A stretch of 64,000 bases of DNA from Candidatus Doudnabacteria bacterium (GTDB lineage Bacteria; Patescibacteriota; Doudnabacteria; UBA920). A program made the translations under genes and the position numbers. Of this stretch, positions 16,352-42,480 are shown one piece after another; position 1 is the first letter of the stretch, and each line of letters opens with the position of its first letter. The notes beneath the pieces were generated by a model. The model was given only the letters and a program-made list of their open reading frames with translations, was not told the origin of the DNA and made no database searches. The DNA lies in assembly GCA_023245895.1 (NCBI GenBank), contig JAHFJJ010000001.1, forward strand, positions 7,621 to 71,620. Direction: 5' to 3'.

Positions 16352-16367
16352 ACGTCTTACCAGCCAA

Positions 16368-16410: not shown

Positions 16411-16447
16411 CGAAATACGCTTTGCTCTAAAAGACCCAACCGGAAAG

Positions 16448-25602: not shown

Positions 25603-26484
25603 TTAGACAAATGATCCGGTTTTTACTTCTCCCGCTCTTTCGTAGTTGGCTACAATAACTCCGCTGGGTGTAACTTTGCTATCAGTTAATTTGAATGCGA
25701 CGGGAATTGTGCCTCCTGCCTGCCGCGTCCGGCCGGCTTTCCACTCACGTTTTAACCATTTTCGGCCAAATCCTGTCTTCAAATCATGCTCACGCTTTAC
25801 TGCCAGTTCACGAGTAATATACTCCTCATAATGGATTATCTCTATAGGCTTACGCAGTTTTGTGTGTTCAGCACCATAGCCGGCTGCATGCTGATTCCAA
25901 CGCTCTGATAGGTCTTGGGTTTGGCCAATATATATCGATCCATCATCACAGAGTATCGCATATACAAAAAATAGATTCGGCCGCGGCGCAGGCAGGTCGG
26001 CAAATAGGCGCTTACCCGAGCCTAAGGTTACAGGAAAAGTTTTTAGCAGTAATTCATCTACCAAATCGTGTTTCAAAAGCGTTTGGATGAGGTTAGCGCT
26101 GCCCCAGACTTTTAAGTCAGGCCCGTCTTGGGCTTTGAGTTTTTTAATTTCCTCTACAATGTCGTCTTTTATAATAATGGAGTTTTTCCAGTCAGCTTTT
26201 GTAAGCGTATTTGAAACTACATACTTGGTGGCTTCGTTAATGCCGGGCCAGCCTTCTTCGTGCTGTGGCCAATAGTTAGAAAATATGTCAAAAGTTTTTC
26301 TGCCCAGGAGCAAATCGGAAGGCTGTTTCATTTGCTCGCCCATTATTTTGCCGGCTACTTCATCAAAATAAGGAAAAGTCCAGCCGCCATACTTAAAGCC
26401 GCCCGAAGTATCTTCTTCCGGTCCGCCCGGCGCCTGCATTACGCCGTCTAAACTAATAAAACTAAGGACAATAATTTTTCTCAT
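25603..26484 (-). CDS. RibD_C/DHFR-like (YwjB-type) reductase-family protein with a GIY-YIG nuclease domain inserted in frame (aa 172-258)
   Basis: The N-terminal 171 aa (IIVLSFISLDGVMQAPGGPEED...GSGKRLF) and the C-terminal 35 aa (TIPVAFKLTDSKVTPSGVIVANYERA) together make a normal RibD C-terminal-domain protein. Between them sits a complete COG2827-type GIY-YIG domain (FFVYAILCDDGSIYIGQTQDLSERWNQHAAGYG...REHDLKTGFGRKWLKRE), encoded at about 25711-25971. Confidence 0.65.
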   Translation of the reverse strand: MRKIIVLSFISLDGVMQAPGGPEEDTSGGFKYGGWTFPYFDEVAGKIMGEQMKQPSDLLLGRKTFDIFSNYWPQHEEGWPGINEATKYVVSNTLTKADWKNSIIIKDDIVEEIKKLKAQDGPDLKVWGSANLIQTLLKHDLVDELLLKTFPVTLGSGKRLFADLPAPRPNLFFVYAILCDDGSIYIGQTQDLSERWNQHAAGYGAEHTKLRKPIEIIHYEEYITRELAVKREHDLKTGFGRKWLKREWKAGRTRQAGGTIPVAFKLTDSKVTPSGVIVANYERAGEVKTGSFV

Positions 26485-26721: not shown

Positions 26722-27063
26722 TTATTTAGTCCTGAACGGCCGTTGATTAACTTCTTTAAGGATTCTAAGTGTGGCGTGTACCGAGAGGTTATCGCTTGGT
26801 AAAAGTATTAGTTTATCGCCTAATTGGTTGAGCAGCCGGCTTAAAAACTCATCGGCCCAAGACGGCGACAGTGTTAATATGCCGGAAAAATCTATTTCCA
26901 GTTCTTCGTCTTTAGGTAGCCCCCGTAAAGTAGTTTGAAAAGCCTTAAAAGCCTCGCTGCCCAATTCACGCGATATTAAGGTTTTACCAAATTTTTCCAG
27001 TTGCAATTTCATAGTAAGTATTAAATTATTTCCATTTTTTAAAATTCTATTTTTGCCAAACAT
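26722..27063 (-). CDS. DUF4325/STAS-like small protein
   Basis: 113 aa, co-directional with the upstream GHKL ATPase gene and overlapping it by 25 nt. The SpoIIAA-like fold call is weak, made from pattern only. Confidence 0.4.
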   Translation of the reverse strand: MFGKNRILKNGNNLILTMKLQLEKFGKTLISRELGSEAFKAFQTTLRGLPKDEELEIDFSGILTLSPSWADEFLSRLLNQLGDKLILLPSDNLSVHATLRILKEVNQRPFRTK

Positions 27064-27758
27064 CCCCGTACAATGTTCTGCCCGCGTGTAACGCGAAATA
27101 GCTTATCTGTTCCTTGCATGCGCACCTCCGCGTCCCCGCTGGTAAAAAATAAGTCCAGCGGCTGCTCGATTACCACTTCACGGACAAGCTTAAGCCCGTT
27201 GCCGCGTTTTTCCGGCGCGCGTCCGGAGATGAATTCGGTAAACGCGACCTTCACCGCCTCAACATGGCTTGGAAGCTCAGGGCGAACTTGGCGCAAAGTT
27301 TCTAAAATACCCAAACCTCTGTCGGCAAGTACAACAATACCCTTAGCAAGATCGTAACCAAAAAAAATTCCTGCCGTGTCCGGCCATTTACCCAAGTTAT
27401 GGGCAAACGAATTATCGCCAATCTCTCCGGTAATTAAAGTAACCAAGGAATATAACTTTTCAAATCCAGGCTTTTGCATAAGTTCGTATTCCATTTTTGT
27501 GAGCCTTGCATTAAAAATGGAACTTGTTGGACAATAAAACACATTGGGAAACTCGACACCTTCCGAAATCCACTCGGAGGCAAATTTCATCATATCGCTG
27601 GCAAATATTTCTAAGTCTTTTTCTCGATAATAACGATGGCTGCCGCCGTCTTTTTTTATAGCTACCAATTTACCGCTCTCGTCCCAACGGCGTAGTGTAT
27701 TCAAAGAAACCCCAAGATATTGGGATGCCTGGCTAATTGTGAGTAATTTTTCTTCCAT
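27039..27758 (-). CDS. MerR/excisionase-type HTH fused to a GHKL (HATPase_c) ATPase domain
   Basis: N-terminal LTISQASQYLGVSLNTLRRWDESGKL is an HTH_17/MerR-like motif. The C-terminal half has the GHKL N-box and G-boxes (GEIGDNSFAHN; LADRGLGI; RGNGLKLV). Confidence 0.55.
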   Translation of the reverse strand: MEEKLLTISQASQYLGVSLNTLRRWDESGKLVAIKKDGGSHRYYREKDLEIFASDMMKFASEWISEGVEFPNVFYCPTSSIFNARLTKMEYELMQKPGFEKLYSLVTLITGEIGDNSFAHNLGKWPDTAGIFFGYDLAKGIVVLADRGLGILETLRQVRPELPSHVEAVKVAFTEFISGRAPEKRGNGLKLVREVVIEQPLDLFFTSGDAEVRMQGTDKLFRVTRGQNIVRGCLAKIEF

Positions 27759-29981: not shown

Positions 29982-30413
29982 CTATATATTATTTTTTTGA
30001 TGAATTTTTTTTCTATGCATATATACAGTTTTTATTAGCGAGGCCAGCACTTTCTCGTTTACATCGGAAAGGCGGTTTATGTACAGGCAGCCTCCGCCTC
30101 TTTTATGCTTTCCTAATTTAGCCAAAAGCGCCGGGTCTTCCTGCTTCCACGCCAAAATATAAAGAGTCAGGTTTTGCTTACGGGGTGAAAAACCCACCAA
30201 AAACCAGTCGCCCTCCTGCGCGCTTTTCTCGGATTTATAATGGTATTTCCCAAAGCCCACCATACTCGTCCCCCACATTACCGGTTTTTCGCCGGTAATT
30301 TTTTTAAAAAGTTTAAGCAATGTAAGGGCGTCTTTGCGCTTTTCGTCCGGCTTTATGGAGTTTATAAATTTTAAAACGCTCTCTTTGGTTGCCTTTGTTT
30401 TTAGTTCTGCCAT
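29982..30413 (-). CDS. DUF1801 (YdhG-like) family protein
   Basis: 143 aa with the pattern VLKFINSI...ALTLLKLFKKITGEKPVMWGTSMVGFGKYHYKS. Confidence 0.55.
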   Translation of the reverse strand: MAELKTKATKESVLKFINSIKPDEKRKDALTLLKLFKKITGEKPVMWGTSMVGFGKYHYKSEKSAQEGDWFLVGFSPRKQNLTLYILAWKQEDPALLAKLGKHKRGGGCLYINRLSDVNEKVLASLIKTVYMHRKKIHQKNNI

Positions 30414-30435
30414 AAAATTTGCTTTGTAAATTTTA

Positions 30436-30478
30436 CTCCGACCTGTTCCGACTGAAACGTCGGAACAGGTCGGAGTAA
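30436..30478. repeat. Perfect 19-bp-stem hairpin tactccgacctgttccgac-tgaaa-cgtcggaacaggtcggagta
   Basis: It lies between divergent genes. It is too long and GC-balanced for a simple terminator, so a recombination or operator site is possible. Confidence 0.5.
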
Positions 30479-31245
30479 GTACTAAATTTAATTATATAAT
30501 CATAATAACCCAAGGCGCTAGGCTTTGTCGAGGTCGCCTGCCTGCCTAACCCCCAGGATGCGCGGGAACACGTAAAATTTTCTATTATATACCTTTTGTG
30601 CTATACTCGTATTATGAAGAATAAAAAATATCTAGCTTTTGCAGGTTGTATGTTTTTGGGGATGGGCATAGGCGCTCTGTTGGGTGATACCGGCGCGGGC
30701 ACGCTCATTGGTATGGGCGCGGGCTTTCTTGCCAGTCTTTTCGTGAAATAGGAACGAACCCTTACTCATAAAACATTTGGAATGTAAAAACCACCATGAG
30801 CTTGTCGAATGGTGATTTTTGTTGGCTCAGCACTATAGAAAGCGTTGGAACTATTTGGAAAAGAAAATTAGACTTCTTTTGTCAGCTCCCATTTCCGATT
30901 ACGAACTGTATAAACTTTTTTCCATTGAACCCCAACTGCACCTTGGGGCGCCTCAACGTCGCCTTTATGATTATAATAGTCCTCAGTGCCTTTGCTTTCG
31001 TCGCGTCGCAAAATAACAGTATGTTGATCGCCTTCTTTTGAACCAAATCCGTCTTAGGATAACTCCCAGTTGAATACAGGCTCCTTTGCTGAACCTTGCC
31101 AGCCTGCTTCGGTTAAATAGTGATTTGTATCTAAACCGGAAAAATCGGGCGTTTCTTTTTCGTTCATATTTTTATAAAATAAATTTATTTAACTTTTTCT
31201 GCAACTTAATTATAGCATAAACAGGTCCGAGCTTCTACTTCCCCG

Positions 31246-31282
31246 AATTAAAATCCACCAATGTTTATTGGTGGATTTTAAT
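31246..31282. promoter_or_regulatory. 36-nt palindrome attaaaatccaccaat-gttt-attggtggattttaat upstream of the Fic-like gene
   Basis: A perfect 16-bp inverted repeat about 140 nt upstream of a TATAAT (31423-31428) and ATG 31442. Candidate operator or att-like site. Confidence 0.4.
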
Positions 31283-31441
31283 GGCTCCGAGCGGCACGAG
31301 AACTTAGAACCGTTATTTTAAGCGGATGGAAATCTTATAAAATGGACATGGCAGTAAAAATAATCAGAAAGGGTCTGTAAGCTTACTAGGCCAAGCCCCA
31401 ATTATGACCTTCCAATTAATTATTGCTATAATCGTATCAAT

Positions 31442-32530
31442 ATGATACGATATAAGTACTTAAATGATACGAAAATGACTACTATATCAACAAAACAGCA
31501 AACTATTATAGGTATCTTCCTTGAAAAAGGAGGTATACAATCATCCGATGTCTATGAAGAAGTCACCAAACTTGGAGAAAAAACTTCACTAGTAACGGTA
31601 AAAAGGATGCTGTCTGAAATGGCCAGTGAAGGTATTTTGGAAGTTTCCGGCTCCGGAAGGTCAACCGGCTATCATATTAGTCCTAAAGGTCGAGTGTTTG
31701 CCGAAATAAATTCCAAAGAATATATTTCTGCGGAACCTGATAAGCGGTTTGGCTTAAGCCGTTATAATTTTGACTTGTTGTCATCCATTCCCGAGGAGAT
31801 TTTTACAGATGAAGAATTAAAACGATTGAAAAACGCTACTATTGAATATGAAAAAAGAATAACGGACTTGCCAGCGGCAATCCAAAAAAAAGAAATGGAA
31901 CGGCTGATCATTGAGCTATCTTGGAAATCATCACGGATAGAAGGCAATACCTATACTCTCTTGGATACCGAGAAGTTGATTCTGGAAAACAAGGAAGCAC
32001 CTGGTCATAGTAAAAAAGAAGCGCAAATGATACTCAACCATAAAGATGCTTTTAACTACATTCACAAAAACTCCGCCCAATTTAAAACTTTGACCCGAAA
32101 AAATCTTGAAGAACTACACGCTATCTTGGTGAAAGATTTAAGTGTGGGACTGGGACTGCGAAAAAAACCGGTGGGAGTTACAGGTTCCAAATATTTACCC
32201 TTGGATAATATCCACCAGATTACAGAAGCAGTGGAAAACCTTTCGGCCACTGTAACGCGTATAACCACTCCTTATGCCAAGGCCTTGGTTGCCTTATTGG
32301 GTATTAGTTATATCCAACCGTTTGAAGACGGCAACAAAAGGACATCCCGGCTTATGGCTAATGCCTTACTTCTTTCCCATTCCCTTGCCCCGCTTTCGTA
32401 TAGGAGTGTTGATGAAAATGAATACCGCGAAGCCGTGTTGGTATTTTATGAATTGAATTCTCTTGTACCGATGAAAAAAATATTCATCAATCAATATGAG
32501 TTTGCTACCCAAAATTACGCGGTAAAATAA
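31442..32530 (+). CDS. Fic/Doc-family protein with a non-canonical motif (QPFEDGNKRTSR)
   Basis: N-terminal winged-helix-like region plus a Fic core. The motif position reads QPFEDGNKR. Canonical Fic is HPFx(D/E)GNGR and Doc is HxFx(D/N)(A/G)NKR, so it is Doc-like (NKR) with the catalytic His replaced by Gln. Confidence 0.7.
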   Translation: MIRYKYLNDTKMTTISTKQQTIIGIFLEKGGIQSSDVYEEVTKLGEKTSLVTVKRMLSEMASEGILEVSGSGRSTGYHISPKGRVFAEINSKEYISAEPDKRFGLSRYNFDLLSSIPEEIFTDEELKRLKNATIEYEKRITDLPAAIQKKEMERLIIELSWKSSRIEGNTYTLLDTEKLILENKEAPGHSKKEAQMILNHKDAFNYIHKNSAQFKTLTRKNLEELHAILVKDLSVGLGLRKKPVGVTGSKYLPLDNIHQITEAVENLSATVTRITTPYAKALVALLGISYIQPFEDGNKRTSRLMANALLLSHSLAPLSYRSVDENEYREAVLVFYELNSLVPMKKIFINQYEFATQNYAVK

Positions 32531-32531
32531 A

Positions 32532-34703
32532 TTAAATCTTTACAAGTTTGTTATAATAGCGTTTCCGCTGTTTAAATTGCCTTTCAAGAAAGGCGATTTT
32601 TTTGTCTTCGTAATCAATAATGGTTTTTTGGTTATTCTTGCCTCGCATGCGGCCAATATATTGGATTAGTTTTCCTTCAAAAGAAAATGGAAAAGCAATT
32701 ATCAAACAGTCAATGCTTGGGATGTCCAGCCCTTCACCAAAAAATTGGCCAGTTGAAAGAATTGCTTGGTAATGGCCGGTTTGGATTTGTTTCAGTTTGA
32801 TTGTTCGTTTGGCGTTGGAATCCTCACCTGATATGGTAATAGTTTCGCATAGGCCTTTGAGATAAAGACTTAAAATTTCCAAGTGATCACGTCGTTCCGA
32901 CAAAAACAAGACTTTTTTGCCTTGGCTGGTTTGTTCCTGAATGTCTTTGACTATCATCTGGTTGCGGTTAGTATCAAAACAAATAAGTTTGGCCAAGAGT
33001 TGAAAGTTGTCAGTGGTGAACTTGAAAGGAACTTCCAGGTTGGTTTCTCGGACAATGATTTGCGTGTTGACTGATTTGTAAGCTGCCGCAGCCGTTTCAG
33101 CTATTATTTCCAGTGCATACTCCATTTGGGCGATGATGTCTCCAATGAACATATAAATTAAGGGCTCATCGTTATGCTTCCGCTTGGGCGTAGCAGTAAG
33201 GCCATAAATGTATTTGGGATTAAGCTGGCTGATAACCTCGCGGAAAGTCTTGGCAGGAATATGGTGACATTCATCTACAATTATCGTACCGAATTTGTTT
33301 TGCAGTTCGGCAAAATTGCCAATTCGTACTAAAGTTTGCATCATGGCTATTGTAATTTCCTCGCCGGTCTTTTTCTTAACAGAATAGTATTGCCCAATGT
33401 CCTTTTTAGGAATTCCCAAAAACGATTGCGTACGTTCAACCCATTGGTCAAGCAATTGCTTGCGATGAACTAAAATTAAGGCCGGCAGTTTTCTTTTGGC
33501 GATAACCTCCAGACCTATTATAGTTTTGCCACTACCGGAAGGTGCGACAATAACGCCGCTATCAGCTTCCAAGGCCTTTGCTACAATCGGCTTCTGCTCA
33601 GGTAAGAGCTTAATGTTGCTCGTAAACTTTACCTCCGGTATTTGCGGTCGTTGGTCTTTAATTTGATAAGCAATTCGGTTATCATGCAAAAAAGAAATTA
33701 GCTGATTTAAAAATCCCCGCGGCAATAAAACATCATCGCCATCTTCCTCAAGCAATTTAAAGAACTTTTGGACTTTGTGAACGGATTTGCCTAACCGTTT
33801 CTTGGTTAAGTATTCCGTGCTAATAAAATTGAGCTTTTCTTTCAAAAAATGGATAAGCTGAGGGGTGAGCTCAGAGCGATTTAAAATAATTTTGCTGTTT
33901 AAAGTTAATCTGACCGATGAAACACCTAACGCTTCCGACACAAAGCTAACGGGCTTGTTAAATACGTTTGAATAAGCTGTTTCAAGTTCCACACCTGTGT
34001 GCTTATATATCGTTTGCAAAAAAGCCCATTGATCGGGATAGGGCTTAAAAGTTTCAGGATCTAAAAATAACGTATTGCTTAGCCGAACAGCTTGGCCTTG
34101 CAGAGGAATGGCAATAAGGTTACCAAACCCCTCTTTGGCTAAACTGTCTTGGTTTGGAAAAAGTCTGTCAAAGCTGACTTCCTTATCAAATTCCGAAAGT
34201 TTTAACACCCGGCGGATTATTTCCAAAATTATTTGTCGGCTCTTATAGCAAGGGTATGGGCTTCCAAAAAATATCCAAACATGCCCGCCGTTGCCTGAAC
34301 GGGATCGTTCAAGATAGGGGTGGAGGCCAACCTTTAGGCATTCGTCAATAAAATTTTTGCAATCCTGTTGCCAAGTACTGCCGTCAAAATCAGCGGCGAT
34401 AAAATACGAAGTATTATCTTGCAGAATTGGGTAAATACCAATAGCACTTGCACCAATTAAATGTTTTCTAACAATATCCGGTGTTAAGGGTATTAATTTT
34501 TTATCTTTAAAGTCCTTGAAGGCCCCACCCTTAAGTTTAAAATTATTGTAAGCTGTCCAATTGACGTCGTAAGCCGGACTATAGTTGCCTTGGCCATTCT
34601 TCTCCCAGTACTTGGCATACACATCTGTTCTGCCGCGAAAGAGCGACTGGTATAAATTCAGCTGTTCTTCAGTAATACTCTGTATCATATATTTAAATTC
34701 CAA
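32532..34703 (-). CDS. PrimPol (archaeo-eukaryotic primase-like) domain fused to an SF2 DExH helicase
   Basis: N-terminal AEP motifs: FIAADFDGSTW (the DxD motif) and SRSGNGGHVWIFF (sGxGxH). C-terminal helicase motifs: VIVAPSGSGKT (Walker A), IIVDECHH (motif II), GLTATP (III), LDIPSIDCLI (V) and QYIGRMRG (VI). 723 aa. Confidence 0.7.
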   Translation of the reverse strand: MEFKYMIQSITEEQLNLYQSLFRGRTDVYAKYWEKNGQGNYSPAYDVNWTAYNNFKLKGGAFKDFKDKKLIPLTPDIVRKHLIGASAIGIYPILQDNTSYFIAADFDGSTWQQDCKNFIDECLKVGLHPYLERSRSGNGGHVWIFFGSPYPCYKSRQIILEIIRRVLKLSEFDKEVSFDRLFPNQDSLAKEGFGNLIAIPLQGQAVRLSNTLFLDPETFKPYPDQWAFLQTIYKHTGVELETAYSNVFNKPVSFVSEALGVSSVRLTLNSKIILNRSELTPQLIHFLKEKLNFISTEYLTKKRLGKSVHKVQKFFKLLEEDGDDVLLPRGFLNQLISFLHDNRIAYQIKDQRPQIPEVKFTSNIKLLPEQKPIVAKALEADSGVIVAPSGSGKTIIGLEVIAKRKLPALILVHRKQLLDQWVERTQSFLGIPKKDIGQYYSVKKKTGEEITIAMMQTLVRIGNFAELQNKFGTIIVDECHHIPAKTFREVISQLNPKYIYGLTATPKRKHNDEPLIYMFIGDIIAQMEYALEIIAETAAAAYKSVNTQIIVRETNLEVPFKFTTDNFQLLAKLICFDTNRNQMIVKDIQEQTSQGKKVLFLSERRDHLEILSLYLKGLCETITISGEDSNAKRTIKLKQIQTGHYQAILSTGQFFGEGLDIPSIDCLIIAFPFSFEGKLIQYIGRMRGKNNQKTIIDYEDKKIAFLERQFKQRKRYYNKLVKI

Positions 34704-35556
34704 AACAATTTACGGCTTCATCCTTAAACCAATTTATAAATTGGGACATACTATCATGGGCTATTAAATCTTTGGCGTCGAAAGTAAAGAGTTGTCCGTA
34801 CCTAGAGAAATAAATTGCAAGTTTGTTTACCTCGCATTTGCCAGGGGTATCCCCAATGCCACCAATTTTATGCAGTAAATAATAACCGGCTAACTGATGA
34901 AGCATTGGTCTGTCAAATTTTAAGTATTTCGTTGTTTTGATGTCAATCAGGATATCGTCGACGAGCAAATCAGCATCCGCGCCGCCGACTAAATTAGAAG
35001 CATGTCCAAAAGTAGGATTAAGCAAACATATGTTTTTTGCGGCAAATATCTCTGGCTTAACCAAATGGATTAAATTTTCAAGATCGGTTACATCTCCCTG
35101 ATCAACAACGCCAAAGTTCCGATCAAGTCGGCCTTCCCTATAAATTTTATCAAGCTGGGCAAGGAGGATGGCGCTCTTAATGATTCCTTTTGTAATCTGG
35201 CCTGATTTAAGATAATCAGCATAAAGTTGTTTGGCCTCATTTAGAATTGCCAATCCTTTATTGTAAGTTTTTTCATACCAAGAGCGACCAAAAATGGAAT
35301 ATGATGTTCCCCATCCAAAGGTTTCGGGAATCTGCTTTACTGCCTGTTCGGCAACCCAGGTTTTAATTATAGCGTTTGGGTTTAAGCGCTTTAAATAGAA
35401 CCGCAGCAGATAATCAAAAGCCGTGCCGACCAGCATATAGTTTTGGGTAAGCGGAGGGGCTAGCAAAGCAGTTTGACAATTGAAATCCGGCAACATGAAT
35501 GTTTCCTGAAATTTTTCCCGCACCTGCTTTACTTTAATGAATGAAGTAAGGCTCAT
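34693..35556 (-). CDS. PD-(D/E)xK nuclease-like hypothetical protein, upstream of and overlapping the PrimPol-helicase
   Basis: GGADADLLVDDILIDIKTTKY fits the D...(D/E)xK restriction-endonuclease-fold motif. Weakly supported. Confidence 0.4.
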   Translation of the reverse strand: MSLTSFIKVKQVREKFQETFMLPDFNCQTALLAPPLTQNYMLVGTAFDYLLRFYLKRLNPNAIIKTWVAEQAVKQIPETFGWGTSYSIFGRSWYEKTYNKGLAILNEAKQLYADYLKSGQITKGIIKSAILLAQLDKIYREGRLDRNFGVVDQGDVTDLENLIHLVKPEIFAAKNICLLNPTFGHASNLVGGADADLLVDDILIDIKTTKYLKFDRPMLHQLAGYYLLHKIGGIGDTPGKCEVNKLAIYFSRYGQLFTFDAKDLIAHDSMSQFINWFKDEAVNCFGI

Positions 35557-35718
35557 TAAGGTATTTTAGCCTAAATAAAGCGGTTTATGCAAAAGGCCCA
35601 TTCCGCTATTTTTTGTTTTTTTATACAGGGTTTATTTTTTGTGGTATAATAAAAGCACTTAGTTTGCCTGAGCAAAACAAAACCAAAAATTTAATCTGCT
35701 TAAGCCACACTCTTCTAT

Positions 35719-35907
35719 ATGGAACCCCTAAGAGAAAATTTTTTAAAGACTTACGCCAATACCCCTATTAACTTGCGAGGAGATATAATTTTGGTTTTGG
35801 ATAAATTGGGACCGGTTAGTTGGAACGCGGCCTATATTGAAGTTGAACAAAAGTCAGAAATATCGGAAACAATTTTAAAAGAACTTAAGGCCCTGGATTT
35901 AATTTAA
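35719..35907 (+). CDS. Small hypothetical protein, 62 aa
   Basis: ORF only. Confidence 0.25.
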   Translation: MEPLRENFLKTYANTPINLRGDIILVLDKLGPVSWNAAYIEVEQKSEISETILKELKALDLI

Positions 35908-35911
35908 AACT

Positions 35912-36160
35912 ATGCAAAAAGAAACTCAAGAAAACTTGAAAAAAGAACGCGAGTTAGTTATAGCGCGTTTAGAAGTTATGTCGCCGGAATTGCATTTTTC
36001 CAGCGGTCATAGTTTTCAAAATTTCTCCAGGGACGAAATTATTGCCCAAATTAAGGAAGGTACCAATGTTGGAGCAGAGTTTGTTAAAACAGAAATGGAA
36101 TTCTTAAGAGCCTTAAAAGACGGTAAGTTACTAAAAAGTTTAATACCTGATCAAACATAG
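35912..36160 (+). CDS. Small hypothetical protein, 82 aa
   Basis: ORF only, in a tightly spaced co-directional series. Confidence 0.25.
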   Translation: MQKETQENLKKERELVIARLEVMSPELHFSSGHSFQNFSRDEIIAQIKEGTNVGAEFVKTEMEFLRALKDGKLLKSLIPDQT

Positions 36161-36814
36161 ATGTCTAGAATTCTTATTGTAACCAACCCATGCGACGATA
36201 AGGTTACTGAATATCTGGATACTTGGTCGGAAAAAGCAATTAATCTGGCTAAAGCTCAGCCAGATACTTTTGTTTATGAGCTGCGCGGGGGAAAGGCAAA
36301 CAGAGAAGACTTTGTTAAGGTTATAGAAGAAAAGCAGCCGCAACTTATTCTATTTAACAGTCATGGCAACCACGATTCTATTACCGGCTTTAATCAAGAC
36401 GTGCTCGTTCGGTGCGGTGAAAATGAACACCTATTAAAAGACAAAATAATCCATGCAATGTCTTGCAACGCGGGTAAAACGCTTGGACCGGAAGCCATAA
36501 AAATTGGAGGCGTGGCATATATAGGTTATAAAGAAGAGTTTAAGCTCACCCATCTTAACAAAAATACTAAAGCCGAACAGTTGCGAGATGAGGTCGCCCA
36601 GTTTTTCTTGGAGCCTGCCTATGAAGCCATAATAGCTCTTGTCGAAGGAAGCACAGTTGAAGAAGCTTTCAACCGTTCACGAAAAATGTGCGCAGATAAT
36701 TTAACTTCTTTAATAACCAGCAATTCTCCCAGTTTAAACTCCAGCGTTGCCAGTCGCTTATACCATAACTACCAGCATCAAGTTTATTTGGGAAATGGCG
36801 CAGCCACGTTCTAA
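36161..36814 (+). CDS. Hypothetical protein with a possible caspase-like His-Gly...Cys dyad
   Basis: LILFNSHGNHDSITG (His-Gly) followed about 40 aa later by IIHAMSCNAGKT (Cys) recalls the C14/CHAT-type protease dyad spacing. Speculative. Confidence 0.3.
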   Translation: MSRILIVTNPCDDKVTEYLDTWSEKAINLAKAQPDTFVYELRGGKANREDFVKVIEEKQPQLILFNSHGNHDSITGFNQDVLVRCGENEHLLKDKIIHAMSCNAGKTLGPEAIKIGGVAYIGYKEEFKLTHLNKNTKAEQLRDEVAQFFLEPAYEAIIALVEGSTVEEAFNRSRKMCADNLTSLITSNSPSLNSSVASRLYHNYQHQVYLGNGAATF

Positions 36815-36838
36815 TTTAACTCATTTCAAAACAGGCTC

Positions 36839-38257
36839 TTGGAAATACATACGCCGGGACAAATTTTTAGAAACACTCCGTACGATAAATTTATTTTGAA
36901 CCTTTCGTGCAGCCAAGCTAAGCTGGAAAATGACAACAAAGGAGTAGATGTAAAGCGCGGACTTAGAAAGAAAATTGCAGCAGGTATGACCATTGGCTTG
37001 GTACCGGAAGGTTATGTAAATTCCAAATATGCAGCCAGGGGCACAAACGTGGCGTTAAAAGATTCAGAGCGTTTTCCTTTGGTCCGCAAAATGTGGGACT
37101 TAATGCTTACAGGAAATTATACACCGCAACAAATTTTAAAAATTGCAAACAGAGAATGGGGTTATAAAACAATTCAGCGGCACAAAATTGGTGGCAAATC
37201 TTTATCTCGTAGTGCAATCTACCAAATGTTTAAAAATCCATTTTATTATGGTTCTATATTTCTTCGTAAAGCTGACGAAGTACATCCGGGCACTCACGAG
37301 CCAATGGTTACCAAAGAAGAATTTGACCGCGTCCAATTTTTGCTCCGCAGCAAGGGCTTAAAATCCGCGCCTCATACAAAAGAGTTTGCCCATACCGGAC
37401 AAATTGTTTGCCAGGAGTGCGGCTGCCAAATTACAGCAGAAGAAAAAAATAAATTCGTCTGCACCAATTGCAAACAAAAGTTCACCCATTCCTTTAAAGG
37501 TAATAAAGCGGCCTGCCCGTACTGCGGTACTTTAATTGCTAACATGGAAAAGCCAAAAAGCTACCATTATGTTCACTACCGCTGCACCAAACGCAAGAAC
37601 ACTGAAACTTTCCGCTGCTCTCAATCCAGCGTTAGTGAAAAAGACTTGGAAGGCCAGGTTAAAAACTTCCTAGCGACAATAAGCATAAACCCCAAATATC
37701 TGGAATGGGGCCTTAAGCATTTAAACGAAAACAAACCAAAAGAAGCCGTAACAGAGGAGGCTATAGCTCAAAATGCAGAAAAGGCATTAGCCGGCATAGA
37801 GAAAAAACTCGGTGGTTTAATTGATATGCGCGCTGCGGGAGAAATTAGCGAGGAGGAATTTAGCAAACGCAGGCAAGCGGCTCTAAATGAAAAGGAGCTG
37901 ATGGAAACAATTTTAAAAAAGAATAAACGCGATGACAGCCAAGGCACTAACAAAGCAAAAGAAACTTTAACATTTGCCGAGCGCGCCTTAAGAGAATACG
38001 AAAATGGCGACAAAAGAAAGAAACACGAGATATTAAAGACCTTAAGTTCGGAACTAAAGCTAAACAACAAAACACTTCTTATACATGCGCAGAAACCTTC
38101 TATAATTCTAACTCAATCTCTTGTGGCCGTACCTGAAGCAAAAGCAGGGTTAGGAACCGTAGAACCCACTATAAACAAAAGACGAACTGCGTCTTTCGAC
38201 GTCGTTCGTCCTTCGTGGCTCGGGAGCTGGGATTCGAACCCAGAACCAATCGATTAA
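36839..38257 (+). pseudogene. Large serine recombinase lacking the N-terminal catalytic (resolvase) domain: recombinase domain, zinc ribbon and coiled coil only
   Basis: It carries the recombinase-domain motif (YQMFKNPFYYGSI), a CxxC...CxxC zinc beta-ribbon (CQECGC...CTNC...CPYCG) and a coiled-coil tail. No Ser-containing resolvase domain or alpha-E helix appears upstream. Its 3' end runs into tRNA-Asn, the expected att site. Confidence 0.65.
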
Positions 38258-38290
38258 CAGTCGATTGCTCTACCGTTGAGCTACTCCCGA
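38216..38290 (-). tRNA. tRNA-Asn (anticodon GTT), CCA encoded
   Basis: The cloverleaf reads out by hand: acceptor tcgggag/ctcccga, D-arm gctc-aacggta-gagc, anticodon stem atcga/tcgat with loop ctGTTaa, T-arm ctggg-ttcgaat-cccag, discriminator G then CCA. 75 nt. Confidence 0.85.
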
Positions 38291-38526
38291 ATATTTTCGT
38301 CAAGCCATTTGCGGCCTTGACCAGACTTTAAGAATTTTTCTCTTCTTAAGGCCTCGTTTTTTGTCGCAAACATCTCTTGATGGATTAATATCCAAGGCTT
38401 GTTATGTCGAGTAAAGATGTTAGTCCCATTGTTATGTTCGGCAAGGCGCGCTTCCGCAGATTTTGAGCTGGAGCCGACATAGCGTTTGCTATTCCTTTGG
38501 CTTTTTAACACATATACGCGGAACAT
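38281..38526 (-). CDS. GIY-YIG nuclease (COG2827/Slx1-URI-like), free-standing; its last 3 codons overlap the tRNA-Asn 5' end
   Basis: 81 aa. YVLKSQ...RYVGSS...RLAEHNNG...KPWILIHQEMFATKNEALRREKFLKSGQGRKWLDEN. It is a paralog of the domain inserted in the DHFR-like gene. Confidence 0.75.
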   Translation of the reverse strand: MFRVYVLKSQRNSKRYVGSSSKSAEARLAEHNNGTNIFTRHNKPWILIHQEMFATKNEALRREKFLKSGQGRKWLDENIRE

Positions 38527-38538
38527 ATTTTTACAGTC

Positions 38539-38599
38539 TCCGCCGGAGGCGGACCAGCCTCTGGCTGGGATTGCTCTACCGTTGAGCTACTCCCGAATA
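38539..38599. repeat. Palindrome ccgccggaggcggaccagcctctggctgg, followed by a 31-nt duplicate of the tRNA-Asn 5' half
   Basis: 38569-38599 (gattgctctaccgttgagctactcccgaata) is identical to 38263-38293, which covers tRNA nt 1-28 plus 3 flanking nt. The GIY-YIG gene lies between the two copies. Confidence 0.75.
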
Positions 38600-39632: not shown

Positions 39633-39992
39633 TCAACTAAAAGCTAATTTTTGCTTGGCCTTTTCTACCACCTCACGCAAACTCCAGTTATAAGGCAGGT
39701 GTTCGTCCAGCCCCATGGAGTACTGCGTGAATATTTCTCGGTCCCGGAAGCTGTTGAGGAATAAAGCCGGCAGCTTCCTTGCCCAGCTCTGCCTGCGGAT
39801 TTGATTTACCGCCGGCTGCCCTTCTTCTTCGGCCACATCCACTACCACTAAGTCCGGATGCCGGCTCTGCGCGACTTTTACCGCTGCCTGTCCGCTGGAA
39901 GCGGTTAGCACCTCAAAACCCTCGGTCTTAAATTTTTGTACCCAGGCCTTTTCCAGGCTCGCGGTATCTTCTATTACTAATATTTTTGCCAT
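39633..39992 (-). CDS. Response regulator receiver (CheY-like) domain protein
   Basis: ILVIED near the N-terminus, the phospho-acceptor region DLVVVD, 119 aa. It lies directly downstream of the GGDEF-EAL gene. Confidence 0.65.
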   Translation of the reverse strand: MAKILVIEDTASLEKAWVQKFKTEGFEVLTASSGQAAVKVAQSRHPDLVVVDVAEEEGQPAVNQIRRQSWARKLPALFLNSFRDREIFTQYSMGLDEHLPYNWSLREVVEKAKQKLAFS

Positions 39993-40065: not shown

Positions 40066-40150
40066 AAAAACAAAAACCGAACAAACATTTGTCCGGTTTC
40101 GCCATTGGCCTCCCCGCAGCTTTAAGGCGACCATATAATAAGCTGCGGAT
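40066..40150 (-). ncRNA. Conserved structured element, copy A: hairpin with conserved loop ATTATaTGGTCGCCTTA plus palindrome ccgGacaaatgtttgttcgg
   Basis: A second copy sits at 44333-44458. Loop and palindrome are conserved between copies, while the flanking stem differs with compensatory changes (gcagctt/aagctgc against ctgaaagtt/aactttcag). Confidence 0.4.
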
Positions 40151-40167
40151 TTAGGGCTTACAGAATA

Positions 40168-42480
40168 TTAAATTTTTACCGGTTCCTGCGCGGGTTCTTT
40201 TTTCGGCAACAGCTTTTTTGCTTCCAGCCAGCCGGCGACTGCTTCAGGCGCCATAGGCGGGGAAATATAATAGCCCTGCGCCGCGTCGCATCCCAGGCCT
40301 GCCAAAAAATTAAATTGCTGGTCAGTCTCCACGCCTTCGGCAATGACTTTTAAATTCAAGGTGCGGGCCATAGAAACAATGGTGCGCACAATACCCGCGT
40401 CCTGTTCATTTACAATGCACTGCCTGACGAAAGAACGGTCAATTTTAAGGTTATGGATAGGAAAGCGCTTTAAATAACTTAAGGAGGAATAGCCCGTCCC
40501 AAAATCATCTATGCTAATCCTAACGCCCATTTTCTTAAGCTGTTTCAAATTATGGCTTGTGGTTTCCAGGTTGCTCATTGCAACGCTCTCGGTAATCTCT
40601 ACTTCCAGGTTGCCCGCATCCATGGCGGATTCTTGCAAAATACGCGCCAGCTGCTCAAGGAATTCGCTGTCGGCAAAGCTTTGGGCTGAAAGATTAACAG
40701 CCATCCGGAACTGCGGAAAACCCATAGCCTCCCAGTCTATATATTGCCGGCAGGTCGCTTTTAAGGCATATTCGCTAAAGCGTAAAATTAAACCGGTTTC
40801 TTCGGCCAGGGGAATAAATTCCGCCGGCGAAAGTAATCCTTTAACCGGATGCTGCCAGCGGGCCAGGGCTTCCATAGCCATGAGTTTTCCGGTTTTCAAA
40901 TTTACAATCGGCTGGTAATAAAGCGACACTTGATTTTCGGCCAGAGCGCGGCGGAGGTCATTTTCCAAAGCCAGTTTTTCAGAGGCGTGGGTGTCCGAGG
41001 ATGGGTTATAGAGGCTGTAACAGTTGCGGCCTTTTTCCTTGGCGCGGTAGAGGGCCATATCCGCGTGCTTTTTTAGTTCATGAGTATCGTGGCCGTCGTA
41101 AGGGTAAATAGCAATACCAATGCTGACCGAAGGGTGGAATGTATGCGCGCCCAGCTGTACCGGTATGCTACTGGCTTTTAGGATTTTTTCCGCGACCTTT
41201 ACCGCCTCGCCTCCGGAATGTATTTCGTTCAATAAAATTAAAAACTCATCCCCCCCAAAACGCGCAATAGTGTCCTCCGCCCTCAGACAGGACTTAAAAC
41301 GCGTGGCCGCTAATTTTAGCACGGTATCGCCCACCGAATGGCCCAGTGTGTCATTAATGCTTTTAAAGCGGTCCATGTCCAAAAACATTATTGCCATTTT
41401 CCTGTTATGCCGCTTAGCCGCTTCTATGGCTTGTTCAACCCTAATACCGAATTGCTTGCGGTTGGGCAGGCCGGTTAGGGAATCATGGTAGGCCTGGTGT
41501 AAAATGGTCTGTTCTGAAAATTTGCGTTCGGTAATGTCGCGCAGGTTGGCCACAATACTGCCTACGCCGGGATGGTCCATCATGTTAACCAATGTCGCTT
41601 CCAGCCAGCGCACGGAACCGTCGCTATGCCAAAAACGGAACTCAAGCGTTTTGGAGCTTTGGGGGACCTGCAAAATTTCAGTGCTATGGGAACGTAAAAG
41701 CGGCAGGTCTTCTTCTAAAACCAACTCGGTAATTTTTTTGTTAATTAAATCGGCCGATTTGTATCCGGACACCTTTGCGGCCGAAGGAGTCATGTCTAAA
41801 ATTTGCCCCTCGGGAGAAATAAGGGCAATAATGTCATAGCTGTTTTCAACCAGGGCCTGGAAACGGGATTTTTGGTTTTCGGCTTCCAGCCTGGCGGCCT
41901 GTTCGCTGGCCAACAAACGGTATATGGTAATGGCCTGGGCGGCACTATGACCAATTAAAACACAAAGGTCTTTTTCATCATCCGTGAATTCGTGTACGTT
42001 GTTGTAGCAAATGTTGAAAGTGCCGTAATTAGTATTTTTATATGCAATGGGAATTGCCACAAAACCTTTAATGTAGGGCTTGAGCTCAGATACCAGCTTG
42101 TCCCATTGTGTATAATCCGACATATAAATAGGCATTTTGTCGTCAAATGCCTTTTGTGTAATGCCGTCTGTCCTGGGCGGGGTCGGTTCAAAAGGAGTAC
42201 GCGGGTCTTTATAGAGCAGCCTAAATTCTTTTTCAGTACTGTCTTTAAAAAAAGAAAAGCCGTAATTGGCGTTTAAAATATCAACTGTAACGTCAGTAAA
42301 ATTTTGTACGATTTGCCTCTCGTTGGCCGCGCCGACAGATTTAAGGACAGCCTGGTTTAACCTATTAAAATTTTTCTTAATGTTTTCTTGCATAAAGTTA
42401 AAGGAAAGGGGCTTGCTGGAGGAATGGGAAATTCCCCCAGCAAGTGTAGCGTAGGCTATTGGAACACCAACAAACGGCAC
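40168..42480 (-). CDS. GAF/PAS sensor protein with GGDEF and EAL domains (c-di-GMP turnover)
   Basis: RFGGDEF with an upstream LDMDRFKSIND GGDEF core. EAL motifs EALARWQHP and the DDFGTGYSSL region. Central PAS segment. 770 aa. Confidence 0.85.
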   Translation of the reverse strand: MPFVGVPIAYATLAGGISHSSSKPLSFNFMQENIKKNFNRLNQAVLKSVGAANERQIVQNFTDVTVDILNANYGFSFFKDSTEKEFRLLYKDPRTPFEPTPPRTDGITQKAFDDKMPIYMSDYTQWDKLVSELKPYIKGFVAIPIAYKNTNYGTFNICYNNVHEFTDDEKDLCVLIGHSAAQAITIYRLLASEQAARLEAENQKSRFQALVENSYDIIALISPEGQILDMTPSAAKVSGYKSADLINKKITELVLEEDLPLLRSHSTEILQVPQSSKTLEFRFWHSDGSVRWLEATLVNMMDHPGVGSIVANLRDITERKFSEQTILHQAYHDSLTGLPNRKQFGIRVEQAIEAAKRHNRKMAIMFLDMDRFKSINDTLGHSVGDTVLKLAATRFKSCLRAEDTIARFGGDEFLILLNEIHSGGEAVKVAEKILKASSIPVQLGAHTFHPSVSIGIAIYPYDGHDTHELKKHADMALYRAKEKGRNCYSLYNPSSDTHASEKLALENDLRRALAENQVSLYYQPIVNLKTGKLMAMEALARWQHPVKGLLSPAEFIPLAEETGLILRFSEYALKATCRQYIDWEAMGFPQFRMAVNLSAQSFADSEFLEQLARILQESAMDAGNLEVEITESVAMSNLETTSHNLKQLKKMGVRISIDDFGTGYSSLSYLKRFPIHNLKIDRSFVRQCIVNEQDAGIVRTIVSMARTLNLKVIAEGVETDQQFNFLAGLGCDAAQGYYISPPMAPEAVAGWLEAKKLLPKKEPAQEPVKI

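What the first reader, a model, noticed from the sequence alone, without database searches (positions are those of the whole stretch)
30400..38300. Decayed integrative island at tRNA-Asn: Doc-like Fic with a His-to-Gln motif, PrimPol-SF2 helicase, PD-(D/E)xK nuclease, caspase-like ORF and a catalytically headless serine recombinase
The 3' end of tRNA-Asn abuts a large serine recombinase gene that retains the recombinase domain, zinc ribbon and coiled coil but has no resolvase catalytic domain. That marks an immobilised element. Upstream lie a PrimPol-helicase fusion (plasmid/ICE-type replication initiator) co-transcribed with a PD-(D/E)xK-like nuclease, three small unknown ORFs, and a possible His-Gly...Cys protease-like protein. 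A Fic-fold protein carries QPFEDGNKR, which is the Doc kinase-type NKR motif but without the catalytic His, so it is probably inactive or repurposed. Long perfect palindromes (30436-30478 and 31246-31282) lie near the presumed left side. The cargo resembles a defence or addiction module set.
Basis: partly seen in the sequence, partly recalled or inferred. Interest (0 to 1): 0.65.

Follow-up and report, generated by a model that had tools for sequence, protein, structure and literature searches.

The report
Decayed tRNA-Asn island carrying IEE-type PrimPol-helicase
This stretch of a candidate-phyla-radiation bacterial genome is the immobilised remnant of a mobile island inserted next to a tRNA-Asn gene. 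It carries several stand-alone conflict or repair genes, chiefly a relative of the E. coli "IS-excision enhancer". It is a good example of a known kind of region, not a new kind of system.

Summary
tRNA-Asn (38216-38290, -) overlaps the 3' end of a large-serine-recombinase (LSR) ORF. That ORF keeps the recombinase and zinc-ribbon domains but lacks the first 108-134 residues, which hold the catalytic domain, and no copy of that domain exists elsewhere in the 64 kb.

Intact relatives of this LSR overlap tRNA 3' ends in the same way in other Patescibacteria. Three other genomes show an LSR remnant near the same helicase gene, two of them beside a tRNA. The "decayed integrative island" reading is therefore supported.

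- **PrimPol-SF2 helicase:** it is not a plasmid-type replication initiator. It is a full-length homologue of E. coli O157 IEE (34% identity, E=2e-136; Pfam AEP-TOTE 3e-77), here in an operon with a RecB/Cas4-fold nuclease.
- **Fic motif:** QPFxDGNKR is the conserved signature of a large Fic subfamily, not a decay lesion.

No distal att repeat and no TOTE core genes were found. Verdict: an ordinary mosaic island with some uncharacterised families.

The parts
38216..38290 (-). tRNA-Asn (GTT), intact and without an intron; this is the right-hand boundary (integration target) of the island
   Evidence: ARAGORN; Rfam RF00005 at 74.6 bits, full length. The 3' part plus 46 nt of downstream flank is 85% identical to the L084 tRNA-Asn region.
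38176..38198 (-). Terminator-like hairpin 18 nt downstream of the tRNA 3' end, lying inside the 3' end of the recombinase ORF
   Evidence: Consensus scan; the block is conserved with L084.
36839..38257 (+). 5'-truncated large serine recombinase ORF of 472 codons. The recombinase domain, zinc ribbon and C-terminal region are kept. The catalytic resolvase domain (about 108-134 residues) is missing.
   Evidence: Pfam; NCBIfam XisF from model position 103. Full-length homologues align from their residue 109-135, starting at window 36833. Weak match to the A118 integrase C-terminal domain 4KIS.
36161..36814 (+). 217-aa caspase-fold (clan CD-like) cysteine protease candidate; third gene of a three-gene cassette
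35912..36160 (+). 82-aa protein of unknown function; second gene of the cassette
   Evidence: Conserved together with its neighbours in L033, L089, L090 and L091. No Pfam, NCBIfam or PADLOC hit.
35719..35907 (+). 62-aa protein of unknown function; first gene of the cassette. A promoter-like site lies at 35622-35650.
   Evidence: Co-conserved across the same loci. Nucleotide homology to L089 spans exactly 35718-36799. Promoter scan.
34693..35556 (-). 287-aa RecB/Cas4-like PD-(D/E)xK nuclease, directly upstream of the PrimPol-helicase gene on the same strand and abutting it
32532..34703 (-). IEE-family PrimPol (AEP)-SF2 helicase. The likely start is the ATG at 34688, giving 718 aa.
   Evidence: PF22548 at 3e-77 plus ResIII and Helicase_C. 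BLASTP to E. coli IEE ECs_1305: 34% identity over 750 aa, E=2e-136. Catalytic residues conserved. The exact 718-aa product is on record.
31442..32530 (+). 362-aa protein with a winged-helix domain and a Fic domain, from the QPFxDGNKR subfamily. It is convergent with the helicase gene and ends 1 nt from it. Whether it belongs to the island is not shown.
   Evidence: Pfam Fic at 1e-12; PADLOC SoFic at 3.6e-18. Motif conserved in 106/150 cluster representatives. Adjacent to the helicase gene again in L002, with Bles03 inserted between them.
31247..31282 (.). Perfect 16-nt-arm palindrome flanked by A and T tracts (terminator-like), outside every block of homology
   Evidence: Nucleotide homology to L002 ends at 31423.
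30433..30478 (.). Perfect 20-nt-arm palindrome 20 nt upstream of the DUF1801 gene; no demonstrated link to the island
   Evidence: dG -39.6 kcal/mol, z -9.7.

Best explanation
Window 32.5-38.3 kb is the immobilised remnant of a genomic island that a large serine recombinase (LSR) once integrated at the 3' end of tRNA-Asn in a Patescibacteria (CPR) genome.

**Why it cannot move.** The LSR gene sits in the position typical of this family: convergent with the tRNA, with its own 3' end overlapping the tRNA 3' end. It has lost its promoter and its first 108-134 codons, which hold the Ser-nucleophile catalytic domain. The truncation lies in a 33-nt interval (36800-36832) at the end of an independently mobile three-gene cassette made of two small proteins and a caspase-fold Cys protease. 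Arrival of the cassette, or a deletion linked to it, most likely beheaded the recombinase. The island can no longer excise on its own.

**What it carries.** The main cargo is a two-gene operon: a RecB/Cas4-fold nuclease followed by an IEE-family PrimPol-SF2 helicase.

**How the operon probably works (inferred).** This follows E. coli IEE, a Mn-dependent polymerase that joins 3' overhangs through >=4-bp microhomology and needs both of its domains to do so. I infer that the nuclease resects DNA ends 5'->3' to expose 3' tails, and that the PrimPol-helicase then pairs and extends them. The expected outcome is microhomology-mediated joining or template switching on broken or replicating mobile DNA, for example IS or element intermediates.

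**The other genes.** The neighbouring Fic gene belongs to a conserved non-canonical subfamily (Gln replaces the catalytic His, Lys the second Gly). It is a separate stand-alone gene whose place inside the island is unproven.

**Shown versus inferred.** Shown: domain and fold identities, the truncation, the tRNA geometry, and the recurrence of these modules elsewhere. Inferred: the order of events, the nuclease/IEE cooperation, and any defence role.
For: **LSR truncation.** The catalytic domain is absent from the ORF and from the whole window.

**Same LSR family at tRNA 3' ends elsewhere.**
- Intact copies overlap tRNA 3' ends convergently in L070 (tRNA-Val) and L006 (tRNA-His).
- Both ORFs read through the tRNA T-arm as '..DSN..', as the window ORF does.

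**Closest analogues of the window island.**
- L013: tRNA-Val, then an LSR fragment, the nuc287 homologue and the IEE homologue, then a 21-nt repeat of the tRNA 3' end.
- L084: tRNA-Asn, then the last 60 aa of the same LSR, 7.5 kb of different cargo, and an IEE gene 82% identical at nucleotide level.
- L093: a recombinase fragment, then nuc287 and IEE.
- L006: the island runs from tRNA-His and the LSR through a restriction-modification pair, a LexA-like repressor and a SMODS-like gene to the IEE homologue. Housekeeping purine-synthesis genes follow.

**IEE identity.** BLASTP to E. coli IEE gives E=2e-136. IEE itself hits PF22548 at 1.7e-98. IEE biochemistry is described in PMC9943667, and iee lies in the integrative element SpLE1 (bioRxiv 10.1101/2023.06.07.543989).

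**Cassette autonomy.** The three genes recur as a unit in unrelated contexts. Cassette homology ends at 36799 and LSR homology starts at 36833.

**Composition.** GC is 37-42% across 31-38 kb against 47-49% to the right.
Against: - No distal att copy or flanking direct repeat is detectable, so the left boundary is undefined.
- Low GC continues leftwards to about 27 kb.
- The Fic-IEE adjacency recurs in a Jacksonbacteria genome next to a different tRNA, tRNA-Gln, with no LSR. One simple ancestral insertion does not explain this.
- The 472-codon recombinase ORF is still open. The truncation is therefore either recent, or the remnant has a function I cannot see.
- Cooperation between the nuclease and IEE rests only on adjacency in four loci and on analogy. 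Most IEE homologues lack this nuclease.
- No empty-site genome was found to show the state before insertion.
Confidence: 0.6

Rival explanations
1. There was never a single island. The region is a chromosomal hotspot beside tRNA-Asn where unrelated small modules landed independently: the IEE gene, the nuclease, the caspase cassette, Fic and GIY-YIG. The recombinase fragment is just one more dead visitor and did not deliver the rest.
For: - Each module occurs alone in unrelated contexts: the cassette, Fic, the nuclease next to ruvB, and IEE next to restriction-modification genes.
- Homology to other genomes stops at gene borders.
- A separate GIY-YIG insertion sits at the tRNA 5' side.
- No att repeat was found.
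Against: An LSR or LSR remnant near an IEE homologue recurs in five independent loci, four of them beside a tRNA (L006, L013, L070, L084, and L093 without a tRNA). Unrelated landings are unlikely to produce this. This rival partly overlaps the best explanation, which already accepts later accretion of the cassette.
Confidence: 0.22
2. One reading: the PrimPol-helicase is the replication initiator of the island. It would be a plasmid/ICE-type Rep that replicates the excised circle, and the nuclease would help process the origin.
For: - AEP-helicase fusions do serve as replicases in some plasmids and viruses (general knowledge).
- The gene is the most constant member of these islands and often lies at their edge.
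- E. coli iee lies just downstream of a gene with a DUF3987 domain.
Against: - The protein is orthologous in architecture to IEE, whose tested activities are polymerase/MMEJ and IS-excision enhancement, not origin-specific priming (PMC9943667).
- No full-length homologue occurs in 50,697 phage records.
- Only 96 of 72,556 plasmid records carry one. Among the 15 best listed, all are 47-570 kb apart from one 1.4-Mb record.
- Close homologues (81-89% identity) sit singly in chromosomal contexts with no other element genes.
Confidence: 0.1
3. The locus is a TOTE conflict system, as the Pfam name suggests, with the AEP-helicase as its enzymatic arm and Fic, the nuclease or the protease as effectors.
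For: - PF22548 'AEP-TOTE' hits at 3e-77.
- The commonest neighbours of the family are toxin-like genes: Fic in 20/80 loci, plus AbiE, HepT and SLFN-HATPase genes.
Against: - The components that define TOTE, a TPR-OB(CSD) protein and a TBP-domain protein (definition quoted in PMC12458937), are absent from the window.
- They are also absent from the common neighbour families I scanned.
- E. coli IEE hits the same Pfam model, so the model marks the AEP family, not the system.
Confidence: 0.05

Closest known systems
[not shown]
   Same: - Collinear full-length homology: 34% identity over 750 aa, E=2e-136.
- Same Pfam set: PF22548, ResIII and Helicase_C.
- Catalytic DxD, His and Asp, and the Walker A Lys, are all conserved.
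- Both genes lie in islands beside a tRNA gene: SpLE1 at serX (from my own knowledge) and tRNA-Asn here.
   Different: - 718-723 aa against 786 aa.
- Found in Patescibacteria, a phylum not listed among the reported hosts (bioRxiv 10.1101/2023.06.07.543989).
- Here it forms an operon with a RecB/Cas4-like nuclease, which is absent in E. coli.
- The island uses a serine recombinase, whereas SpLE1 encodes a gene annotated 'integrase' (ECs_1299).
- IS-excision activity is untested here.
TOTE (TPR, OB, TBP, Effector) conflict systems (Aravind, Iyer & Burroughs 2022, as cited in PMC12458937)
   Same: The AEP domain belongs to the Pfam family named after these systems.
   Different: No TPR-OB and no TBP component is present here or in the usual neighbourhoods. 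I could not read the original description because the paper is not held.
Integrative elements of the large-serine-recombinase type (A118/phiC31-type integrases, XisF, SCCmec Ccr)
   Same: The recombinase domain, zinc ribbon and C-terminal region are present. The recombinase gene lies at the element edge.
   Different: - The catalytic domain is deleted.
- The target is a tRNA 3' end, and the ORF reads into the tRNA. I also saw this geometry in the CPR relatives L070 and L006.
- From my own knowledge, tRNA targets are more typical of tyrosine integrases.
Clan CD cysteine proteases: SAVED-CHAT, gingipains, separase, metacaspases, Craspase TPR-CHAT
   Different: - Only 217 aa, with no sensor or partner domain.
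- Sequence identity to solved structures is 10-17%.
- No Pfam model detects any family member.
- It always follows two small ORFs.
- Only 39 relatives were found among 5.8 billion sequences.
Fic/Doc (Fido) proteins: FICD/HYPE, SoFic, Doc of phage P1
   Same: It has a Fic domain (Pfam 1e-12; FICD 5.5e-11). It has Lys at the Doc-type position of the motif.
   Different: Gln replaces the catalytic His. This change is fixed across the subfamily (106/150 representatives). An N-terminal winged-helix domain is present. The activity is unknown.
RecB/Cas4/Dna2/MGME1-type PD-(D/E)xK exonucleases
   Same: The fold and the D...(D/E)xK...QxxxY motifs match.
   Different: - There is no Cas4-type four-Cys iron-sulphur cluster; only one Cys is invariant.
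- A long N-terminal helical region is present.
- No Pfam model covers it.

Membership tests
[not shown]
   PF22548 at 3e-77, model positions 1-228 of 230. E. coli IEE hits the same model at 1.7e-98.
IEE family (AEP-TOTE PF22548 + SF2 helicase) | AEP catalytic residues equivalent to IEE D142, D144, H178 and D216 | tested here: met
   AADFDG at 103-108, GNGGHVW at 137-143 and FDRLFPNQD at 178-186 align to the IEE motifs. They are invariant in 23 homologues.
IEE family (AEP-TOTE PF22548 + SF2 helicase) | C-terminal SF2 helicase with Walker A Lys, DExH, and motifs III and VI, collinear with IEE | tested here: met
   GSGKT, DECHH, TATP and QYIGRMRG are present. The alignment is collinear to IEE residue 773. 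ResIII and Helicase_C hit.
IEE family (AEP-TOTE PF22548 + SF2 helicase) | Enhances transposase-dependent IS excision; polymerase plus MMEJ activity | not testable with these tools
   These activities are known only for the E. coli protein (PMC9943667).
TOTE conflict system | TPR-OB (cold-shock domain) fusion protein in the operon | tested here: not met
   No TPR or CSD hit in any ORF from 24 to 49 kb, nor in the common neighbour families I scanned.
TOTE conflict system | TATA-binding-protein (TBP) domain protein in the operon | tested here: not met
   No TBP hit.
Large serine recombinase (functional integrase) | N-terminal resolvase catalytic domain with the Ser nucleophile | tested here: not met
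   No Resolvase hit. Homologues align only from their residue 109-135, and there is no match elsewhere in the window.
Large serine recombinase (functional integrase) | Recombinase domain and zinc beta-ribbon | tested here: met
   PF07508 at 5e-10 and PF13408 at 7e-6; A118 integrase C-terminal domain.
tRNA-targeting integrative island | tRNA gene at one boundary with the recombinase gene adjacent to it | tested here: met
   The same geometry holds for intact relatives.
tRNA-targeting integrative island | Second att copy (a repeat of the tRNA 3' end) at the distal boundary | tested here: not met
   No copy with up to 3 mismatches. Local alignment gives no score above shuffled controls. No flanking repeat above background. 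From my own knowledge, serine integrases need little attL/attR identity, so absence is weak evidence.
Clan CD (caspase/CHAT/gingipain) cysteine protease | Caspase-hemoglobinase fold | tested here: met
   [not shown]
Clan CD (caspase/CHAT/gingipain) cysteine protease | Catalytic His-Cys dyad, each residue following a hydrophobic beta-strand | tested here: met
   H68 follows strand 62-66 and C102 follows strand 96-99. Both are invariant in 29 sequences. I did not check the structural superposition of the dyad residue by residue.
Clan CD (caspase/CHAT/gingipain) cysteine protease | Sequence membership of a curated family (Peptidase_C14, CHAT, C13, C25 and others) | tested here: not met
   No such Pfam hit at E<=1 for any of 29 members.
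Fic/Doc (Fido) | Fic fold domain | tested here: met
   PF02661 at 9.9e-13; FICD at 5.5e-11.
Fic/Doc (Fido) | Catalytic His of the HxFx(D/E)GN(G/K)R motif | tested here: not met
   Residue 292 is Gln. The same Gln is present in 106/150 subfamily representatives.
RecB/Cas4-like PD-(D/E)xK nuclease | Fold plus the D, (D/E)xK and QxxxY motifs | tested here: met
   [not shown]

The most novel reading that the evidence does not exclude
In Patescibacteria and their relatives, the IEE-family PrimPol-helicase may not be mere cargo. It may be the defining gene of a class of small tRNA-flanking mobile units that carry no integrase.

- **tRNA proximity:** in 6 of the 80 scanned genome loci, all labelled Patescibacteria/CPR in their record titles, its stop codon lies 83-190 nt from a convergent tRNA-Ser.
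- **Flanking repeats:** in about 12 of 68 loci, imperfect direct repeats of 21-178 nt bracket units of 2.4-6.6 kb. In the tRNA-adjacent cases examined in detail, the repeats hold the last ~9-21 nt of the tRNA, in most cases plus downstream flank. The units are usually 3.3-3.9 kb and hold only IEE plus one partner gene (Fic, HepT and others).
- **No recombinase:** no recombinase was detected in the ORFs scanned in and beside these units.

If the PrimPol-helicase itself drives insertion or turnover, through microhomology joining or template switching, with a RecB-like nuclease in some lineages, this would be a new mobility mechanism. The window would then hold a larger version that an LSR captured.
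Probability: 0.12. Interest if true: 0.75.

Novelty: new member of a known kind. Interest (0 to 1): 0.4.

Why it matters
- **IEE reaches the CPR.** The IS-excision-enhancer family has been studied only in E. coli. Here it is shown to be abundant and highly conserved in ultra-small CPR bacteria: more than 8,000 relatives, about 60% identical across CPR lineages. In some lineages it pairs with a RecB-like nuclease.
- **A testable model.** That pairing suggests a two-protein end-resection and microhomology-joining module.
- **A new protease cassette.** The locus flags an uncharacterised three-gene cassette with a caspase-fold protease, found in CPR bacteria and one Nanoarchaeota (DPANN) record. 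It also flags a large Fic subfamily that lacks the catalytic His.
- **Overall.** None of this overturns current ideas. The region is a typical mosaic of mobile conflict genes.

Tried and rejected
1. **Distal att site.** I searched with pattern matches of the tRNA 3' end and junction allowing up to 3 mismatches. I also used local alignment against 24-32.6 kb with shuffled controls and a seed-and-extend repeat search between 30.4-32.6 and 34.7-38.3 kb. Nothing rose above background.
2. **Empty site in a relative.** A metagenome scan with the flanking GGDEF-EAL protein found no relatives.
3. **Split or displaced recombinase catalytic domain.** tblastn of three full-length homologues' N-termini against the whole window gave only noise. 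The 217-aa ORF is in the same frame as the recombinase ORF, but it is a protease, not a resolvase.
4. **TOTE membership.** The core components are absent. The original TOTE paper could not be read.
5. **Functional Fic-IEE link for the QPF subfamily.** Of the 80 QPF-Fic metagenome loci, 36 have >=2.5 kb downstream of Fic and 33 have >=2.5 kb upstream. Only L095 has a full-length IEE homologue nearby. I therefore treat the adjacency as specific to this lineage.
6. **False-positive repeats.** Some repeat hits around IEE genes were artefacts: L017 reflects paralogous kinase genes and L059 reflects GIY-YIG-associated repeats. Both were discounted.
7. **Palindromes.** The Rfam hits on the palindrome at 30434-30478 are chance miRNA matches far below threshold.

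Full report
**1. What is in the sequence**

The window region holds these features, from right to left.

- **tRNA-Asn(GTT), 38216-38290 (-)** (ARAGORN; Rfam 74.6 bits).
- **A 472-codon recombinase ORF, 36839-38257 (+).** Its last 42 nt overlap the tRNA 3' end.
- **Three tightly packed genes on the + strand:** 35719-35907 (62 aa), 35912-36160 (82 aa) and 36161-36814 (217 aa).
- **Two abutting genes on the - strand:** 34693-35556 (287 aa) and 32532-34703 (723 aa from a TTG start). The product on record starts at the ATG at 34688 and is 718 aa.
- **A convergent gene, 31442-32530 (+), 362 aa.** It ends 1 nt from the helicase stop codon.
- **About 1 kb of poorly coding DNA** with two perfect palindromes, at 30433-30478 and 31247-31282.

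GC is 37-42% from 31 to 38 kb and 47-49% to the right of the tRNA. Low GC continues leftwards to about 27 kb. The closest named relatives of the helicase come from Candidatus Doudnabacteria and Jacksonbacteria, so the host is a Patescibacteria (CPR) bacterium.

**2. The recombinase is headless, and its family targets tRNA 3' ends**

- Pfam finds Recombinase and Zn_ribbon_recom but no Resolvase domain. NCBIfam XisF aligns only from model position 103.
- Full-length relatives recovered from other loci begin with the canonical YARKS...RLSRN catalytic region. They align to the window only from their residues 109 (L028), 120 (L057) and 135 (L070), starting at nucleotide 36833. Their N-terminal parts (the first 125 residues) match nothing in the 64 kb (best E 0.3).
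- Intact members of the family have the same geometry as the window ORF: convergent with a tRNA and overlapping its 3' end. In L070 the LSR (15682-17316) overlaps tRNA-Val (17256-17330). In L006 the LSR (2699-1080) overlaps tRNA-His (1015-1087).
- The window and L070 ORFs both translate the tRNA T-arm as '..DSN..'.

**3. Comparative support for a decayed island**

| Locus | Layout |
|---|---|
| L013 | tRNA-Val, LSR fragment, homologue of the 287-aa nuclease, homologue of the helicase, then a 21-nt repeat (20/21) of the tRNA-Val 3' end 158 nt past the helicase stop |
| L093 | recombinase fragment, nuclease, helicase |
| L006 (island with intact LSR) | tRNA-His and LSR, TdeIII restriction-modification pair, LexA-like repressor, SMODS-like gene, then the helicase homologue; purine-synthesis genes follow |

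In the window itself no distal att copy or flanking repeat is detectable. A search for an empty site in a relative found nothing. The left boundary is therefore undefined.

**4. The PrimPol-helicase is an IEE-family protein**

- The 723-aa ORF hits PF22548 'AEP-TOTE' (3e-77, full model), ResIII and Helicase_C.
- It has more than 8,000 relatives. Identity is about 60% across CPR lineages and 41-50% in most Bacteroidota and other non-CPR loci (up to 57-61% in a few Bacteroidota, Chlorobiaceae and Ignavibacteria loci).
- BLASTP against E. coli O157:H7 IEE (ECs_1305, fetched from NC_002695) gives 34% identity over 750 residues, E=2e-136, collinear end to end. IEE hits the same Pfam model at 1.7e-98.
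- The IEE catalytic residues D142, D144, H178 and D216, and the Walker A lysine (bioRxiv 10.1101/2023.06.07.543989; PMC9943667), correspond to AADFDG, GGHVW, FDRLFPNQD and GSGKT in the window protein.
- IEE is a Mn-dependent polymerase that joins 3' overhangs through >=4-bp microhomology and needs both domains to do so. It enhances transposase-dependent IS excision, and it lies in the integrative element SpLE1 (PMC9943667).

*Is it a replication initiator?* Probably not. There is no full-length homologue in 50,697 phage records. Only 96 of 72,556 plasmid records carry one, and among the 15 best listed these are plasmids of 47-570 kb plus one 1.4-Mb record. Homologues 81-89% identical to the window protein sit singly among restriction-modification or housekeeping genes.

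*Is it a TOTE system?* TOTE is defined by TPR-OB, TBP and an effector (PMC12458937). No TPR-OB or TBP gene is present in the window or among the common neighbour families I scanned. The Pfam name marks the AEP family, not the system.

**5. The nuclease**

- The 287-aa protein has no Pfam hit. It has 2,416 relatives in bacteria and archaea.
- D194, D196 and K207 are invariant, Q221 and Y225 are invariant or nearly so, and D205 lies at the (D/E) position of the (D/E)xK motif.
- It lies next to the IEE homologue in L004, L013, L093 and the window. This is rare among the 80 genome loci scanned (2 of them, L004 and L013). One distant homologue sits next to ruvB.
- *Inference:* a RecB-type 5'->3' resection enzyme would supply the 3' tails that IEE-type enzymes join. 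This is untested.

**6. The caspase-fold cassette**

- The 217-aa protein has only 39 relatives among 5.8 billion sequences. Nearly all full-length members are 216-219 aa and none has a Pfam hit.
- H68 follows strand 62-66 and C102 follows strand 96-99. Both are invariant.
- The two small upstream genes are always present with it, in L033, L089, L090 and L091. The contexts are unrelated: a type I restriction-modification system with an OLD nuclease, housekeeping genes, and assorted small genes.
- Nucleotide homology to L089 spans exactly 35718-36799, and LSR homology begins at 36833. The break in the recombinase therefore lies in a 33-nt interval at the cassette's end. I infer that arrival of the cassette, or a deletion linked to it, removed the catalytic domain.

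**7. The Fic gene**

- It has a Pfam Fic domain (1e-12) and an N-terminal winged-helix-like region. Its nearest solved relative is FICD.
- The motif is QPFEDGNKR. An exhaustive HMMER search found 3,347 cluster representatives, and 106 of the best 150 carry Q...K in the motif. The Gln is a fixed feature of the subfamily, not a lesion.
- Among 80 metagenome loci with this subfamily, a full-length IEE homologue is adjacent in only one.
- The Fic-IEE adjacency recurs in a Jacksonbacteria genome (L002), with a Bles03 gene inserted between the two, next to tRNA-Gln and without an LSR.
- A different Fic subfamily, with the canonical HPFxDGNGR motif, is the commonest neighbour of IEE homologues. It occurs in 20 of 80 loci, and in 14 of these it lies directly upstream on the same strand.
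- I cannot show that the window's Fic gene belongs to the island.

**8. The palindromes**

Both are real and highly stable. They lie outside every block of homology and show no relation to the tRNA. Their role is open. The second is flanked by A and T tracts, like a bidirectional terminator.

**9. Verdict**

The individual assignments need sharpening: IEE family rather than a Rep protein; a conserved Fic subfamily rather than a dead copy; an autonomous protease cassette. The whole is a mosaic of known kinds of mobile conflict and repair genes. I rate the best explanation at 0.6 confidence and the finding at 0.4 interest.

The most novel reading left open comes from related loci, not from the window. 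In CPR genomes, IEE genes often end 83-190 nt from a convergent tRNA-Ser. They are often bracketed, together with a single partner gene, by direct repeats of 21-178 nt, and the ORFs I scanned in and beside these units showed no recombinase. This could mean that the PrimPol-helicase takes part in the units' own mobility. I give that 0.12.

Noticed in passing
window 38263-38293 and 38569-38599, around ORF 38281-38526 (-): A perfect 31-nt direct repeat, made of 3 nt plus tRNA-Asn positions 1-28, brackets two small hairpins and an 81-aa GIY-YIG gene (Pfam 6e-14). The gene's stop codon lies inside the tRNA 5' end. The layout looks like a mini-element inserted into the 5' part of the tRNA that restores the gene, the mirror image of integration at a tRNA 3' end. 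The same layout occurs at tRNA-Ser in L030 (36-nt repeat). Related repeats flank GIY-YIG genes in L084 and L059.
   Followed up: partly
window 25603-26484 (-): A single 293-aa ORF combines a RibD_C domain with a GIY-YIG domain. It is probably a second GIY-YIG mini-gene abutting or fused to a host gene.
   Followed up: no
window 40082-40170 (-): A c-di-GMP-II riboswitch-like element covers the full Rfam model at 41.8 bits, below the gathering score of 53.5 (E 2.8e-6). It lies between a GAF-PAS-GGDEF-EAL gene (40168-42480) and a response-regulator gene (39633-39992). It may be a divergent true riboswitch.
   Followed up: no
L021, L024, L030, L043, L057, L075 (genome loci with IEE homologues): In these loci the IEE homologue's stop codon lies 83-190 nt from a convergent tRNA-Ser. 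In L057, L043, L021, L026, L075, L080, L028, L053 and L035, imperfect direct repeats of 23-178 nt bracket units of 2.4-3.9 kb. In the tRNA-adjacent cases the repeats include the last ~9 nt of the tRNA plus downstream flank. Each unit holds only IEE plus a Fic gene or another small partner. The ORFs I scanned in and beside these units showed no Pfam recombinase domain. Control repeat scores reached at most 15, against 18-107 observed.
   Followed up: partly
L084:2130-2360 (Doudnabacteria GCA_031291995.1): The tRNA-Asn orthologue carries an insert of about 230 nt in the anticodon loop, and ARAGORN does not call the gene. This fits the group I introns at position 35/36 of Patescibacteria tRNA-Asn reported in PMC13011429. 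The window's tRNA-Asn has no intron.
   Followed up: partly
window 32574-32599 (+): A terminator-like hairpin followed by a T-run lies 44 nt after the Fic stop codon, inside the 3' coding end of the convergent helicase gene. The two genes' 3' ends therefore interlock.
   Followed up: no
L094:6001-6861: A 48%-identical homologue of the 287-aa nuclease sits directly upstream of ruvB and queA in a housekeeping context. Part of this nuclease family may therefore have a core recombination or repair role.
   Followed up: no
window 26722-27758 (-) and L002:20807-21818: A MerR-HTH gene paired with a DUF4325 (STAS-like) gene lies 3.7 kb from Fic in the window and 7.4 kb from Fic in the Jacksonbacteria locus. 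The two loci share a 99-nt stretch at 81% identity, but the pair is inverted in one relative to the other.
   Followed up: no
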